Below, one piece after another: positions 1,213 to 59,832 of a stretch of DNA of 64,000 bases (positions are counted from its first letter, which is position 1; each line of letters begins with the position of its first letter). A program made the position numbers and the translations under genes. The stretch lies in assembly GCA_964016885.1 (NCBI GenBank), contig OZ024749.1, positions 33,852,001-33,916,000 of the forward strand. The letters are read 5' to 3'. This DNA comes from Eledone cirrhosa. Lineage: Eukaryota. The notes beneath the pieces were generated by a model. That model worked only from the letters and a program-made list of their open reading frames with translations. It did not search any database and was not told the origin of the DNA.

Positions 1213-1268
1213 ACTGCCTGATGAGGTCATAGCCATTCAATGGCTATCATCGAAATATATATAGCAGT
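1213..1268 (+). ncRNA. Type I hammerhead ribozyme motif (PLE pLTR-like)
   Basis: actgc-CTGATGA-ggtcatagcc(attcaa)tggctatcatc-GAAA-tatata-TA-gcagt: stem I actgc/gcagt, hairpin stem II, palindromic minimal stem III. Confidence 0.85.
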
Positions 1269-3967: not shown

Positions 3968-4022
3968 ACTGCCTGAAGAGGTCACAGCCAAAGATAGTTG
4001 TCACCGAAATATATATAGCAGT
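3968..4022 (+). ncRNA. Type I hammerhead ribozyme motif
   Basis: actgc-CTGAAGA-ggtcacagc...gttgtcacc-GAAA-tatata-TA-gcagt; inverted partial copy at ~3747-3831. Confidence 0.85.
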
Positions 4023-4499: not shown

Positions 4500-4832
4500 A
4501 TAAAGAATGAATAATAACAAGTAGACATCATAAAAAGGTAATTTATTCTGTGCGCTTACAAATGTATCCACGGTGGTTATACAACCTAGTTATGCCATGT
4601 GCAAATTTATAACTATTTGCAAAACTCAATTATCAAATGCTGTGACCACTGTATCCTCAGAGCAGAATGATTCTGCTCTGAGGATACAGTGGTCACAGCA
4701 TTTGATAATTGAGTTTTGCAAATAGTTATAAATTTGCACATGGCATAACTAGGCTGTATAACCACCGTGGATACATTTGTAAGCACACAGAATAAATTAC
4801 CTGTTTATGATGTCTACCTGTTATTATTCATT

Positions 4833-4838
<6 letters not shown>
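4500..4838. repeat. ~170-bp-arm palindrome carrying two head-to-head HHR-like motifs
   Basis: Apex at 4669; + copy 4674-4785 tgct-CTGAGGA-tacagtggt...accaccgtg-GATA-catttg-TA-agca (GAAA replaced by GATA in both arms); mirror at 4553-4664. Confidence 0.8.
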
Positions 4839-10759: not shown

Positions 10760-11160
10760 ATTGAAGGTGTCGGTAGAGCGTCAGACACCCTTTTTTGCAG
10801 CACAGAGTTATGGCTCATTACGTTCTGAGTTCAAATCCCGCCAAGGTTACCTTTGCCTTTCATCCATACGGGGGTCGATAATATAAAGTACCAGTAATGC
10901 ACTGAGGTCGATTTAATCAACTTTCCCCTCTCTCCAAATTGATGGCCTTGTGTCTAGTCTGAATCAGAAACCATTGTGGATTGGCAGTATCAGTAGAAGG
11001 TCGGACGCCATGCTGCCCAGCATAGTTACATCCCTTTACGGTCTGAGTTCAAATCCCGTCGAGGTTAACTTTGCCTTTCATCCTTACGGGGTAGATAAAA
11101 TAAAGTACCAGTAATACACTGGGTAATTGCTGGCCTTGTGCCAAAAAGTAGAAACAATTA
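10760..11160 (+). mobile_element. Two tandem major-family SINEs
   Basis: Consensus match twice. Confidence 0.8.
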
Positions 11161-11189
11161 TTAAACATTATTTGAAATAAGACATATAC

Positions 11190-11235
<46 letters not shown>

Positions 11236-11326
11236 GTATATGTCTTATTTCAAATAATGTTTAATAATTGTTTCTACTTTTTGGCACAAGGCCAGCAATT
11301 ACCCAGTGTATTACTGGTACTTTACT

Positions 11327-11422
11327 GGGGTCTTACTGGTTCCTATTACCCACTCTACTACCTCAAGTATTGAGTACTTTGGTGCGTTATGGTCCACCTG
11401 GTTCCTTACCACATTTCCTTCG

Positions 11423-11473
<51 letters not shown>

Positions 11474-11665
11474 AACAAGTAAGACCCCGACGGCTGAGCT
11501 CAAGCCGTTTCGACGGCTAATTCTGGACGTCCAGAATTAGCCGTCGAAACGGCTTGAGCTCAGCCGTCGGGGTCTTACTTGTTCCTATTACCCACTCTAC
11601 TACCCTAAGTATTGAGTACTTTGGTGCGTTATGGTCCACCTGGTTCCTTACCACTTTTCCTTCGT

Positions 11666-11667
<2 letters not shown>
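11327..11667. mobile_element. Family A composite: + copy, (TA)n, perfect palindrome centred 11528/11529, + copy
   Basis: Arms 11472-11528 and 11529-11585 are exact reverse complements; contain GAAA-cggct-tgagctc-agccg-TC. Confidence 0.85.
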
Positions 11668-11753
<86 letters not shown>

Positions 11754-12317: not shown

Positions 12318-12469
12318 AAGCAGAGTATAAATATTTAATATAGAAAGGCTTCAACAAGACTAGAACTGTTTCATTCCGGAGAAATCATCAGGCTTCCTGG
12401 TGATTTCTCCGCAATGAAACAGTTCTATTCCTGTAGAAGCGTTTCTATATTAAATGTTTATACTCTGCT

Positions 12470-16304: not shown

Positions 16305-17487
16305 ACATTCGGTAGAGAGTCGGACGCCATGCTTTCTAGCATAGTTACGTCCCTTTACAGTCTAAGTTCAAATCCAGCCGAGGTTAACTTTGCCTTTCAT
16401 CCTTAAGGGGTCGATAAAATAAAGTACCAGTAATGTACTGGGTAATTTGCTGGCCTTGTGCCTAAAGTAGAAACAATTATTATCAGAGTGTTGGATTGAC
16501 AGAATCGGTAGAGAGTCGGACACCATGCTTTGCCGCATAGAGTTACGGCCGTTTAATATCTGAGTTCAAATCCCGCCGAGGTTAACTTTGCCTTTCATCC
16601 TTAAGGGGTCGATAAAATAAAGTACCAGTAATGTACTGGGTAATTGCTGGCCTTGTGCCTAAAGTAGAAACAATTATTATCAGAGTGTTGGATTGACAGA
16701 ATCGGTAGAGAGTCGGACACCATGCTTTGCCGCATAGAGTTACGGCCGTTTAATATCTGAGTTCAAATCCCGCCGAGGTTAACTTTGCCTTTCATCCTTA
16801 AGGGGTCGATAAAATAAAGTACCAGTAATGTACTGGGTAATTGCTGGCCTTGTGCCTAAAGTAGAAACAATTATTATCAGAGTGTTGGATTGACAGAATC
16901 GGTAGAGAGTCGGACACCATGCTTTGCCGCATAGAGTTACGGCCGTTTATGATCTGAGTTCAAATCCCGCCGAGGTTAACTTTGCCTTTCATCCTTATGG
17001 GGTCGATAAAATAAAGTACCAGTAATGTACTGAATGATTGCTGGACTTGTGCCAAAAATAGAAACATTATTCAGGGCGGTGGATTAGCAGTATCGGTAGA
17101 GTGTCTGTCTGACACCATGCTTTGCAGCATAGAGTCATGGCCTTTTACGTTCTGAGTTCAAATTCCGTCGGGGTTAGCTTTGCCTTTCATCTTTACGTGG
17201 TCAATAAAATAAAGCACCGGAGATCGATATACTCAACTTTTCTCCATCCCCTGAATCGCTGGCCTTCTGTCGATGTGTTGTGGCAGTATAGATAGAGCGT
17301 CTGACACCATGTTTTGCAGTATAGAGTTACGGCCCTTTACGTTCTGGGTTCCAATCCCGCCGAGTTTAGCTTTGCCTTTCGTCCTTACGAGGATCGATAA
17401 AATAAAATAGACACTGGTGTCGATATGATAGAATTTCCCCACCCCTTCAAATGGCAGGTCTTGTGCCTAAAGTCGAAACAATTATTA
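16305..17487 (+). mobile_element. Head-to-tail array of about six major-family SINEs
   Basis: Units starting cagagtgttgg at 16484, 16681 and 16878 (197-bp period, near-identical) plus diverged neighbours. Confidence 0.9.
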
Positions 17488-21549: not shown

Positions 21550-21630
<81 letters not shown>

Positions 21631-21656
21631 CGTGTGTGTGTGTAAGTGTGACTCGC

Positions 21657-21701
<45 letters not shown>

Positions 21702-21741
21702 TTATATATTTGATCAATTACATTTTGATCAATTACATTTT

Positions 21742-21785
21742 ATTATACATATTTCGGATGTACAACAGTACGTCCTCATCAATCT
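21742..21785 (-). ncRNA. Degenerate HHR motif
   Basis: Minus strand: TTGATGA-ggacgtac(tgtt)gtacatcc-GAAA-tatgta-TA; C3 changed to U, weak stem I. Confidence 0.55.
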
Positions 21786-21862
21786 TTGACATAATCATCG
21801 AATATTGTTTAACAACTTAATACTTATATATATATATATATATATATATTAACAGCTTAATA

Positions 21863-21908
<46 letters not shown>

Positions 21909-22018
21909 TCCAGTTCCTCAGTGAAATAACAACCCAACCAGGAACTGGGCATATCAGAGTATTGACAAAATTATACACCTCAACAACATATGTACTTGTC
22001 TATACCACACTAATTCGG

Positions 22019-22073
22019 ACTGCCTGAAGAGGTCGCAGCTAAAGATGGCTGTCACCGAAATATATATAGCAGT
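22019..22073 (+). ncRNA. Type I hammerhead ribozyme motif
   Basis: actgc-CTGAAGA-ggtcgcagct...ggctgtcacc-GAAA-tatata-TA-gcagt; host element 21903-22125 matches 3862-4080. Confidence 0.85.
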
Positions 22074-22283
22074 AATAAACGAAGCTAAATTTTAAACATT
22101 TGACTTTTTATTTTACTTTATTTTATATATAAATATATATATATATATATATACAGAGCGAGTCACACTTACACACACACACACACATATACATATACAT
22201 ACATATATATATATATATATAAATATTTATATATATATATATATGTATGTATATGTATATGTGTGTGTGTAAGTGTGACTCGC

Positions 22284-22320
<37 letters not shown>

Positions 22321-29059: not shown

Positions 29060-29141
29060 CATCATTATGAATGAAATTTTGTAATGGAATAGGAAATTTA
29101 TATTAACCCATTATTGAACGAGTAGATGGGAATGATATATA

Positions 29142-29225
<84 letters not shown>

Positions 29226-29429
29226 TAGAAAGTGAGGTTTTTTTTACAAAATGAAAAAACGAGGTGTCTTACACGAGTGAAAGTAAAAAGAAAAAAAGAT
29301 CAAATCGAAAATGCAACTGGAGCCTTATTTTAAAAATATATATATATTTATTTGGTTCCTTTACCGGTTTCGCAGTTCTTCTGCTTTTCAAAAGTAGAGT
29401 TGAGATGGAGGGTCTGTGGTTTTTCTCAC

Positions 29430-29509
<80 letters not shown>

Positions 29510-29691
29510 ATATATATATACATATAAAGGATAACAAAATATCGTTATAGTTAATCCAATTAGAGGTTGTGAATACTTCTTAATATGGATAGTGTTCAGC
29601 AATTTTTAGACAACTCTATCAGTGAAACAATTGTTAGACTGCAAATAAATCCCCTTTTTGTACTATTGACCATGTTATTCTCCACTTTTTC

Positions 29692-29780
<89 letters not shown>

Positions 29781-30156
29781 TGTATATATACATATATATT
29801 ATTCCCATGTATTAGTTCAATAATGGGTTAATATAAATTTCCTATTCCATTACAAAATTTCATGGTGAAATATATTTCTTTAATGAAATATATACAAGGA
29901 AGATTAATCATTTTAAAAGGTATCTATATTTGAAGTTCTAATTAAACTTTAATTAGTTACCTACCTAGTTGTGTGTGCTTACACACTTTACAAATTATCC
30001 CCTGTGATTGTTTCATGTGTTTATTTTATATATATATATGCCAATCAAATATAAAATGCTCGGATCTATTCATTGGAATCTTTGAGCCTATTCTACGGAA
30101 TGACTCCCTTATTTTAATTTGGGATATGACTCCCTTATTTTAATTTGGGATATATA

Positions 30157-41160: not shown

Positions 41161-41205
41161 AAAGATGAACCCAATGAATAAACACACACATACACACACA
41201 CGCAC

Positions 41206-41255
<50 letters not shown>

Positions 41256-41333
41256 TCGTGTGTGTGTATGTGTGTGTTTATTCATTGGGTTCATAAAGAT
41301 GAACCCAATGAATAAACACACACATACACACAC

Positions 41334-41376
<43 letters not shown>

Positions 41377-41465
41377 CGTGTGTGTGTATGTGTGTGTTTA
41401 TTCATTGGGTTCATAAAGATGAACCCAATGAATAAACACACACATACACACACACGCACATGTAT
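41161..41465. repeat. Alternating inverted concatemer A-(TA)n-A'-A-(TA)n-A'-A
   Basis: atgaacccaatgaataaacacac three times and its reverse complement twice. Confidence 0.9.
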
Positions 41466-41831
41466 ATATATATATAGATATAGATATACATACACACACA
41501 AAAGCGTGAACCTAATAAACTACCATTTGTACTGCCTCTCTGTTTTTTGTTCCTGTCTAATATTTAACTATATATATATATTATATATATATATATACTT
41601 ACATACATATATAAATGTGGGTGTATATATGTGTGTGGGTGTCTGTGTGGCAGAGAATTGGCAAAGTCGTTGGAAGGACAGATAGAATGATTTAGGATAT
41701 TCCTTCCAGTTCTCTGCATTCTGAGTTCAAATCCCGTCGAGATGAACTCGGCCTTTATTCTTTCCGAGCTGGATAAAAACGAACTAGTTCAATACATTTG
41801 CCCATTCTTTCTCACCCTCTCTTTCCTCGCC

Positions 41832-45159: not shown

Positions 45160-45590
45160 TGGTTATGTATATATTATAACTTTTTATAGTTATGTATATT
45201 TTAAACCCTAAACAGTGAAGGTCAGTAATTTATTACTACCTTATTACCAGTAAGATAAATAGCTCAATGTAATAGCATCAATTGTTCTACAGAGCAATTA
45301 TATAGAATTCACAAGAATCAAAGCTATGTTCAAAGCATTTATTCACTTACAATTGTTTCATCCAAACCTAGGCTTGGAGTCTTCGGACCCTTTTTCAATG
45401 TTTGTACACATAATTAACCTCCTTTCCAACGTAAGAGACATACAGATACATATATATATATTGATGTACAGTGGAGTGGCATATACTATACTATACTATT
45501 TTTGTACAGCAATTCAAATTCAAAATCAAAATAAATTTGAATTGCTGTACAAAAATAGTATAGTATAATATATGCCACTCCACTGTACAT

Positions 45591-45632
<42 letters not shown>

Positions 45633-45885
45633 CTCTTGCGTTGGAAAGGAGGTCAATTATGTGTACAAACATTGAAAAAGGCTCCGAAGACTCCAAGCCT
45701 AGGTTTGGATGAAACAATTGTAAGTGAATAAATGTTTTGAACATAGCTTTGATTCTTGTGAATTCTATATAACTGCTCTGTAGAACAATTGATGCTATTA
45801 CATTGAGCTATTTATCTTACTGGTAATAAGGTAGTAATAAATTACTGACCTTCACTGTTTAGGGTTTAAAATATACATAACTATA
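45160..45885. repeat. Large palindrome (~350-bp arms) with two head-to-head HHR motifs
   Basis: + 45681-45725 gct-CCGAAGA-ctccaagc(ctag)gtttggat-GAAA-caattg-TA-agt; mirror 45345-45389; (TA)n on both flanks. Confidence 0.85.
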
Positions 45886-51731: not shown

Positions 51732-51774
51732 GTCACTGAAGAGGTGACAGAATGTGTGACGAAAGAACTTTGAC
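51732..51774 (+). ncRNA. HHR-like motif
   Basis: gtca-CTGAAGA-ggtgaca(gaatg)tgtgac-GAAA-gaac-TT-tgac; relatives at 59790 and ~42905. Confidence 0.65.
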
Positions 51775-57068: not shown

Positions 57069-57245
57069 ATATAGATGAGATTCTACAGGACTAGAACTGT
57101 TTCATTCTTTAGAAATCATCAGGAATTTCTAAAGAATGAAACAGTTCTAGTCCTGTAGAATCTCATCTATATTAAAACTTTTATACTCTGCAATGTATTG
57201 AGTACCTTACTTACTGTGGTTACCTCCGATTCAACCCGGAATAAC

Positions 57246-59789: not shown

Positions 59790-59832
59790 GTCACTGAGGA
59801 GGTCACAGAATGTGTGACGAAAGAGCTTTGTC
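59790..59832 (+). ncRNA. HHR-like motif
   Basis: gtca-CTGAGGA-ggtcaca(gaatg)tgtgac-GAAA-gagc-TT-tgtc. Confidence 0.6.

What the first reader, a model, noticed from the sequence alone, without database searches (positions are those of the whole stretch)
11101..11324. Host flank copied as a perfect inverted repeat across (TA)n, then fused to the element
Seen: 92 bp of flank (SINE tail plus unique DNA, 11101-11192) is mirrored exactly at 11233-11324 around a ~40-bp TA tract and runs straight into the family A 5' end. Inference: a cut in self-complementary (TA)n folds back and primes synthesis on its own strand before joining the cDNA. This would be an inverted target duplication in place of a normal TSD, and it also spreads SINE pieces.
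Basis: partly seen in the sequence, partly recalled or inferred. Interest (0 to 1): 0.82.

Follow-up and report, generated by a model that had tools for sequence, protein, structure and literature searches.

The report
Fold-back flank copy at Penelope insertion
When a Penelope-type jumping gene landed in a TA repeat, 92 bases of the neighbouring DNA were copied backwards and joined to its front end, most likely because the cut TA end folded back on itself; this rare slip is already known from human L1 elements.

Summary
This copy starts at its predicted hammerhead cleavage site. Most copies carry an inverted copy of themselves at the 5' end; here an inverted copy of the host flank takes that place. 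The same layout recurs at L156 (162 bp), L286 (14 bp) and window 29071-29863 (another family). It is rare: 0 of 148 other junctions in one set, 1 of 28 long copies. Mirrored low-copy flanks also occur without a fused element, at 7 of 1,270 TA blocks versus 0 of 1,159 other microsatellites. Best reading (0.7): the second cut TA end folded back, copied its own strand and was end-joined to the cDNA. This outcome is published for human L1 (about 0.4% of insertions); my searches found no report for Penelope elements. It replaces the self-inversion, not a TSD, and does not spread SINEs. Public contigs did not show the junction (inconclusive). The scan noted similar mirrors elsewhere in this genome.

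The parts
10976..11162 (+). Host SINE-like repeat (tRNA-type A/B-box-like motifs); its last ~62 bases are part of the copied flank. Start coordinate approximate.
11101..11192 (+). Source arm (template): SINE tail 11101-11162 plus ~30 bases not repeated in the window; continues leftwards into the rest of the SINE
11193..11232 (.). (TA)20, self-complementary centre of the mirror; inferred cut and fold-back point
11233..11324 (-). Inverted copy of 11101-11192, 92 of 92 identical; the new DNA
11325..11326 (+). Two-base linker; could be templated by an 11-base slip-back on the same arm (weak: one or two bases are informative)
11327..11423 (+). Family A copy 1: first 97 bases of the Hydra-clade Penelope-like element's monomer, from the predicted hammerhead cleavage site to the family's fixed 3' insertion end; no self-inversion
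11424..11471 (.). (TA)24 at the 3' end of copy 1 (first-strand priming side, inferred)
11472..11665 (+). Family A copy 2, another subfamily (4 of 97 differences from L170), with the family's usual inverted self-copy (60-base-arm palindrome 11469-11588); most likely a separate insertion into the same TA tract
11666..11750 (.). (TA)42 at the 3' end of copy 2
29071..30030 (+). Second, older case in the window: flank 29071-29133, TA tract holding another element, 95%-identical inverted copy 29801-29863, fused directly to a 5'-truncated copy of another TA-targeting repeat family starting at about 29864

Best explanation
This is likely a rare by-product of one insertion of a Hydra-clade Penelope-like retrotransposon into (TA)n, in which the second cut end folded back and copied its own flank before being joined to the element's cDNA. 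Shown: the element's identity, the TA target, the start of this copy at the predicted ribozyme cleavage site, the exact mirror, and that the mirror sits where most copies carry an inverted self-copy. Inferred steps: (1) The element's GIY-YIG endonuclease cuts the TA tract. (2) The right-hand TA end primes reverse transcription at +97 of the RNA and runs off its ribozyme-made 5' end. (3) The left-hand end normally primes a second cDNA at about +19, which gives the usual head-to-head copies. Here its 3' overhang, ending in self-complementary TA, would have hairpinned and been extended for 92 bases on its own strand. (4) The new end was joined to the cDNA end through little or no homology. The polymerase for step 3 is not identified; a host repair polymerase is more likely than the element's reverse transcriptase.
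For: Intact copies encode a 786-791-residue ORF with Hydra-clade motifs. 10,203 exact copies of the 25-base start motif; 9.6% are lost in the 6 bases before the predicted cleavage site versus about 3.9% in the next 6, so this site is a preferred 5' end. Usual 5' junction: self-inversion starting at +16 to +18 in 61 of 77 scored self-inversions; 21 of 28 resolvable long copies. Fused flank mirrors lack the self-inversion in each case seen: this locus; L156 with a 162 of 162 arm on a 2.3-kb copy and a patchwork junction alternating flank and element letters; L286 with 14 bases; window 29071-29863 in another family. Low-copy mirrors are TA-specific: 7 of 1,270 vs 0 of 1,159. The same outcome and model are published for L1: 4 cases, 0.3% + 0.1% of insertions, 52-220 bp (PMC10191854); self-annealing of the resected reciprocal end, one case primed by 2-bp TA/AT (10.1101/2024.12.14.628481). 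Local fold-back duplications also form at yeast breaks (PMC11724301, abstract).
Against: No empty allele and no read crossing the junction was seen: among contigs of four runs laid on the 58-base junction, none listed bridges it, although one run covers the unique flank. Mirrors also arise without a fused element, and elements beside them are not clearly enriched (5 of 9; p=0.04-0.16), so the fold-back does not need an insertion. In three TA-separated cases (L061, L064, L192) the neighbouring element appears to face the mirror with its 3' end, not its 5' end (my reading). The final sequence cannot tell the direction of synthesis. The ORF had no Pfam or significant PDB hit; its identity rests on motifs. 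Ribozyme cleavage was not assayed.
Confidence: 0.7

Rival explanations
1. Same single event, opposite direction: the reverse transcriptase ran off the RNA 5' end, jumped onto the bottom strand of the left flank 92 bases from the cut, copied it back into the TA tract, and the TA ends then annealed.
For: Other copies show foreign sequence joined at this same RNA end: A-rich tails (L289, L291, L293, L295, L302), pieces of other families (L287, L304) and unrelated sequence (L307). Template jumps are proposed for Penelope elements (PMC3846280). The final sequence would be the same.
Against: It needs the bottom strand of the left flank to be open, whereas ordinary 5' resection exposes the top strand (established repair biology; model). 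It does not explain mirrors that end in TA with no element (L206, L226).
Confidence: 0.12
2. Two steps: a host break at a TA cruciform made the mirror first, the element inserted later in the adjoining TA tract, and a deletion removed the TA and any self-inversion between them.
For: Mirrors without a fused element are at least as common as fused ones. TA repeats break and are repaired by polymerase-theta end joining without any transposon (PMC13645644, passages). This TA tract was hit more than once (copy 2).
Against: A chance deletion would have to end within 2 bases of the ribozyme cleavage site. Mirror and element are both unmutated (92 of 92; 97 of 97). L156 has a junction that alternates flank and element letters, so both templates were present at once.
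Confidence: 0.12
3. Assembly or long-read fold-back artefact.
For: Perfect identity of the arms. No listed contig of four public runs bridges the junction.
Against: A fold-back read would be expected to keep mirroring, not stop after 92 bases and enter an element at its ribozyme site. Diverged (93-98% identical) mirrors of the same kind exist. The four runs may be other individuals, and contigs show presence, not absence.
Confidence: 0.06

Closest known systems
L1 insertions with fold-back inverted duplication of the 5' flank (PMC10191854, process C; 10.1101/2024.12.14.628481, Fig. 4A, D, E)
   Same: Retrotransposon cDNA joined to an inverted copy of the DNA upstream of the target; similar length (52-220 bp there; 14, 63, 92 and 162 bp here); rare (about 0.4% there; order of 1% here); explained by self-annealing of the second end.
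   Different: Here the element is Penelope-like with a GIY-YIG nuclease, the primer is a whole self-complementary (TA)n run rather than 2-bp microhomology, the cases sit in a genome assembly rather than somatic clones, and the mirror stands in for the family's usual inverted self-copy.
Hydra clade of C-terminal-endonuclease Penelope-like elements (PMC8557442)
   Same: Protein motifs, (TA)n target, hammerhead in the terminal repeat, 5' truncation, inverted 5'-truncated self-copy, one-sided tail.
   Different: The passages read describe inverted copies of the element, not of the host flank. This family's monomer is 3,558 bases and its tail about 80 bases, against generally under 3 kb and 30-40 bp in the paper.
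Local fold-back templated inverted duplications at double-strand breaks (yeast, PMC11724301) and polymerase-theta repair of TA-repeat breaks (PMC13645644)
   Same: Break end folds back, is extended, then captured by end joining; TA repeats are break sites.
   Different: No retrotransposon is involved there. The yeast duplications are mostly 5-34 bp. The TA-repeat paper has no occurrence of 'foldback' or 'fold-back'.
U3-A8 variant type I hammerheads of Penelope-like elements (PMC4209133)
   Same: Core with U3-A8 in place of C3-G8, G10.1-C11.1 pair, palindromic loop 3, located in the terminal repeat.
   Different: Helix II here is long and helix III is 4-5 pairs. Neither copy at this locus holds a whole ribozyme. 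Activity untested.

Membership tests
Hydra clade of Penelope-like elements | Single ORF with reverse transcriptase and C-terminal GIY-YIG endonuclease | tested here: inconclusive
   ORFs of 776-819 residues in 12 of 12 copies fetched (chosen for long frames), with RT-like and GIY-YIG-like motifs read by eye; no Pfam hit at E<=0.1, no significant PDB hit
Hydra clade of Penelope-like elements | RWK motif and DKG changed to DKT in the N-terminal part | tested here: met
   RWR and DKT in L169 and L173 against section 11 of PMC8557442
Hydra clade of Penelope-like elements | [quoted passage not shown] | tested here: met
   Both present in L169 and L173
Hydra clade of Penelope-like elements | Insertion into (TA)n | tested here: met
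   30 of 30 loci have a TA run at the 3' end (some interrupted); random copies likewise
Hydra clade of Penelope-like elements | Hammerhead ribozyme in the terminal repeat | tested here: met
   Type I fold with U3-A8 core predicted in L170, conserved core among long copies, excess of 5' ends at the site; cleavage itself not assayed; Rfam gathering search of the window gave 0 hits
Hydra clade of Penelope-like elements | Phylogenetic placement of the RT within Hydra | not tested
   No tree built; reference sequences in the paper's supplement were not read
Fold-back inverted duplication at a retrotransposon target (L1 type) | Inverted copy of the genomic DNA next to the second (5'-side) end, joined to the cDNA 5' junction | tested here: met
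   repeated at L156 and L286
Fold-back inverted duplication at a retrotransposon target (L1 type) | Self-annealing homology at the turn of the hairpin | tested here: met
   The turn is (TA)20, itself a palindrome
Fold-back inverted duplication at a retrotransposon target (L1 type) | Mirror and insertion arise in one event (empty allele lacks both) | tested here: inconclusive
   No empty allele or bridging contig seen; the genome has no relatives held
Fold-back inverted duplication at a retrotransposon target (L1 type) | TSD-like overlap between the two breakpoints | not testable with these tools
   Any overlap is hidden inside the TA run; the pre-insertion tract length is unknown

The most novel reading that the evidence does not exclude
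Hydra-clade Penelope endonucleases cut (TA)n far more often than they insert, and the self-complementary ends fold back. The roughly 6,000-30,000 TA-centred mirrors of host DNA in this genome (extrapolated from 7 of 1,270 blocks) are then scars of aborted or deflected insertions. The second cut end has three competing fates (prime on the RNA, fold back on itself, or anneal directly), and the telomerase-like reverse transcriptase may itself make the mirror and add TA. This makes these elements a germline source of short palindromes.
Probability: 0.2. Interest if true: 0.6.

Novelty: new member of a known kind. Interest (0 to 1): 0.3.

Why it matters
How Penelope-like elements make their head-to-head ends is still open (PMC8557442 says an in vitro system is needed). 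Copies in which a flank mirror stands where the self-inversion should be suggest that the inverted piece is made from the second cut DNA end, and that this end is a free 3' overhang. That extends a repair outcome known from somatic L1 insertions to another retroelement class. It also points to a countable genome-wide class of TA-centred mirrors. The single locus has no evident function and the mechanism type is not new.

Tried and rejected
Rfam gathering scan of the window: 0 hits. A canonical CUGANGA hammerhead search missed family A because its core is the U3-A8 variant. Pfam on the C-terminal piece and on the whole ORF: no family. PDB sequence search: nothing significant. Read validation: public runs are held as contigs only; X4 covers the unique flank at depth about 7, but none of the listed pieces of X4, X5, X6 or X9 bridges the junction and the depth steps leave no room for one. 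A 32-base piece reaching 4 bases past the junction is explained by SINE copies with an 11-base internal duplication (L136) and was not counted. The first inverted-repeat scan over-masked and was replaced. Mirrors whose arms are element ends (L044, second L061 hit, L213, L230, L259 inner, L265) were set aside because two facing copies of one family give the same picture: 6 of 13. M1 cases (element between the arms) were left out of the 5-of-9 test because they are found conditional on a middle piece. Rejected: inverted TSD, and SINE dispersal. Paper searches for a Penelope report of flank mirrors gave none; only listings were seen for most hits.

Full report
OBSERVATION. The two arms, 11101-11192 and 11233-11324, are exact reverse complements (92 of 92) around (TA)20, and the match ends at both outer edges. 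The left arm runs on into the rest of a SINE-like repeat, so it is the source; the right arm is the new copy. About 62 bases are SINE tail and about 30 are not repeated in the window. The right arm is followed by two bases and then by family A at 11327. Among the 40 best candidates scored in the 3.0-Gb genome only this place matches the whole junction. Shuffled flank pairs give a mirror in 21 of 25,065 trials, so chance is excluded.

WHAT FAMILY A IS. One locus (L018) led upstream into a coding frame. A protein search of the genome returned 150 scored matches at 96-100% identity. Twelve copies chosen for long frames have ORFs of 776-819 residues. They carry RWR, DKT, a CxCX5C linker, a GIY-YIG-like motif and CxxC...E...N...CxH, the features listed for the Hydra clade in PMC8557442 (section 11 read whole; other passages; supplements not read, and they may list this family). 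Pfam and PDB gave no hit, and I built no tree. The monomer is 3,558 bases. Its terminal repeat folds as a type I hammerhead with a U3-A8 core, a variant described for Penelope elements (PMC4209133, passages). The predicted cut falls exactly before the base at 11327. Of 10,203 exact copies of the 25-base motif that starts there, 9,219 continue 6 bases upstream and about 8,862 continue 12 bases (the last pattern is two bases shorter at its 3' end): losses of 9.6% and 3.9%. So about one young copy in twenty starts at this site, and this copy is one of them. It is identical to an intact copy over 97 bases. The neighbour at 11472-11665 differs at 4 of 97 and has the usual self-inversion, so it is most likely a separate insertion.

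THE USUAL 5' END. I classified 151 family A junctions from all loci then held; 2 lay at an edge. The script scored 77 self-inversions, 24 with more element upstream, 13 plain TA, 8 inverted element without a TA start, 26 other, and 1 flank mirror, which is this locus. Many of the 26 'other' are short self-inversions by eye. Leaving out the locus that prompted the study gives 0 of 148, including 0 of 31 from random stretches. This set is partly selected by my queries. Among 32 loci with long copies, 3 ran off the locus and 2 were one insertion; of the 28 junctions left, 21 were self-inversions, 4 plain TA, 2 unresolved and 1 a flank mirror (this set overlaps the first). That case, L156, has a 162 of 162 mirror across a TA block fused to a 2.3-kb truncated copy, and its junction alternates flank and element letters. 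Two patterns aimed at odd junctions at the ribozyme site listed 38 and 48 places with some overlap. I fetched 40 of them, skipping most that were plainly short self-inversions. One, L286, is a 14-base flank mirror fused at the site, and L275 is a mirror of a CA run only. In the window, 29071-29133 is mirrored at 29801-29863 (95%) and runs straight into a truncated copy of another TA-targeting family. None of these fused cases has a self-inversion.

THE BACKGROUND. I drew 146 stretches of 10 kb at round coordinates. With one strict detector, 13 of 1,270 TA blocks have mirrored flanks; 7 have low-copy arms (6 loci), and 6 have element arms and were set aside. Among 1,159 blocks without TA, 2 have mirrors and 0 have low-copy arms (Fisher p=0.016, or 0.032 by loci). 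A looser detector adds L192 and L226. By eye, nine such loci mirrored across a pure microsatellite (L061, L064, L184, L192, L195, L206, L221, L226, L230) all end in a TA-containing block; none is fused to an element. Five of the nine have an element end beyond that block, against 24% or 35% of TA-block sides depending on the definition: p=0.04 or 0.16. Some show repeated flips (L206, L184, window 41165-41492). So TA-centred mirrors are a recurring feature here, at 0.55% of TA blocks (95% interval 0.22-1.13%), roughly 6,000-30,000 if extrapolated. They do not need a finished insertion.

READS. The run search listed 13 runs, 9 holding part of the stretch. X4 covers the unique flank at depth about 7. 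No listed contig of X4, X5, X6 or X9 crosses the junction. These are contigs of possibly different individuals, so the test is inconclusive.

MECHANISM. Shown: the parts and their order, the TA target, the start at the ribozyme site, and the position of the mirror where the self-inversion normally sits. Inferred: the endonuclease cuts the TA tract; the right end primes cDNA at +97 and runs off the cleaved RNA end; the left end, which normally primes a second cDNA at about +19, instead hairpins through its TA overhang, is extended 92 bases on its own strand, and is end-joined to the cDNA (0.7). A jump of the cDNA onto the flank gives the same sequence (0.12); junctions with A-rich tails and foreign pieces show that this RNA end is joined to other templates. 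A two-step history (0.12) needs a deletion ending within 2 bases of the ribozyme site. An artefact (0.06) fits poorly with diverged mirrors of the same kind.

COMPARISON WITH PRINT. PMC10191854 (passage) reports fold-back inverted duplication upstream of the target in 3 + 1 somatic L1 insertions (0.3% + 0.1%), 52-220 bp. 10.1101/2024.12.14.628481 (passages and Fig. 4 legend) gives the same model, one case primed by TA/AT, and notes that a TSD-like overlap remains. PMC11724301 (abstract and outline) shows fold-back duplications at yeast breaks. PMC13645644 (passages) shows TA repeats breaking and being repaired by polymerase theta with no transposon. For Penelope elements, inverted self-copies and self-priming are in print (PMC8557442; PMC3846280, passages). 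10.64898/2026.07.22.740005 (first fifth read) was not relevant. Searches returned no paper on flank mirrors at Penelope insertions; most subscription journals are not searched. Earlier notes of this scan describe mirrored host flanks at other Penelope insertions in this genome (e1-9532863, e1-9539566); I did not check their loci, and they call the genome octopus-like, which I did not test.

VERDICT. Real as assembled, and well explained: a known repair slip at a retrotransposon target, seen in a further class of elements. It replaces the family's inverted self-copy rather than a TSD, and it duplicates a SINE tail only locally. Interest 0.3. The open part is whether the many element-free TA mirrors are scars of the same endonuclease.

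Noticed in passing
L289, L291, L293, L295, L302 (just upstream of the ribozyme site): Element sequence ending at or before the ribozyme site is followed by A-rich tails, some mixed with G, and then by the RNA's 5' end again. This suggests tailed RNA ends were circularised or jumped across during reverse transcription, and is indirect evidence that the ribozyme cuts in vivo.
   Followed up: partly
L287, L304, L301, L307, L308: Pieces of other TA-targeting families or unrelated sequence sit between the TA tract and the family A 5' end, suggesting template switches between different RNAs.
   Followed up: no
L022: Five or six tandem copies of the first 19 bases of the RNA, each separated by a short TA, precede the element: repeated re-priming at the +19 site.
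   Followed up: no
L039:1703-3800: Palindrome with arms of more than 900 bases, centred on a family-A-like hairpin between two TA runs.
   Followed up: partly
window 45185-45885, 21630-22300, 41165-41492, 318-753: Further mirrored or repeatedly flipped flanks at TA blocks in the window, with and without an element in between.
   Followed up: partly
window 1218-1255, 3973-4009, 22024-22060, 51736-51764, 59794-59822, 12369-12391, 57100-57122: Hammerhead-core motifs of the canonical CUGANGA type in other repeat families next to TA runs.
   Followed up: no
window 4500-4838: Palindrome with 169-base arms, a 1-base spacer and 4 mismatches, ending at (TA)n; arm sequence not found in the random sample.
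   Followed up: no
window 16309-17218: Tandem array of about 4.6 copies of the 197-base SINE-like repeat.
   Followed up: no
L072 (upstream of a family A relative): A short hairpin of apparently host sequence, with no TA run, abuts the element's 5' end: possibly a fold-back primed by microhomology.
   Followed up: no
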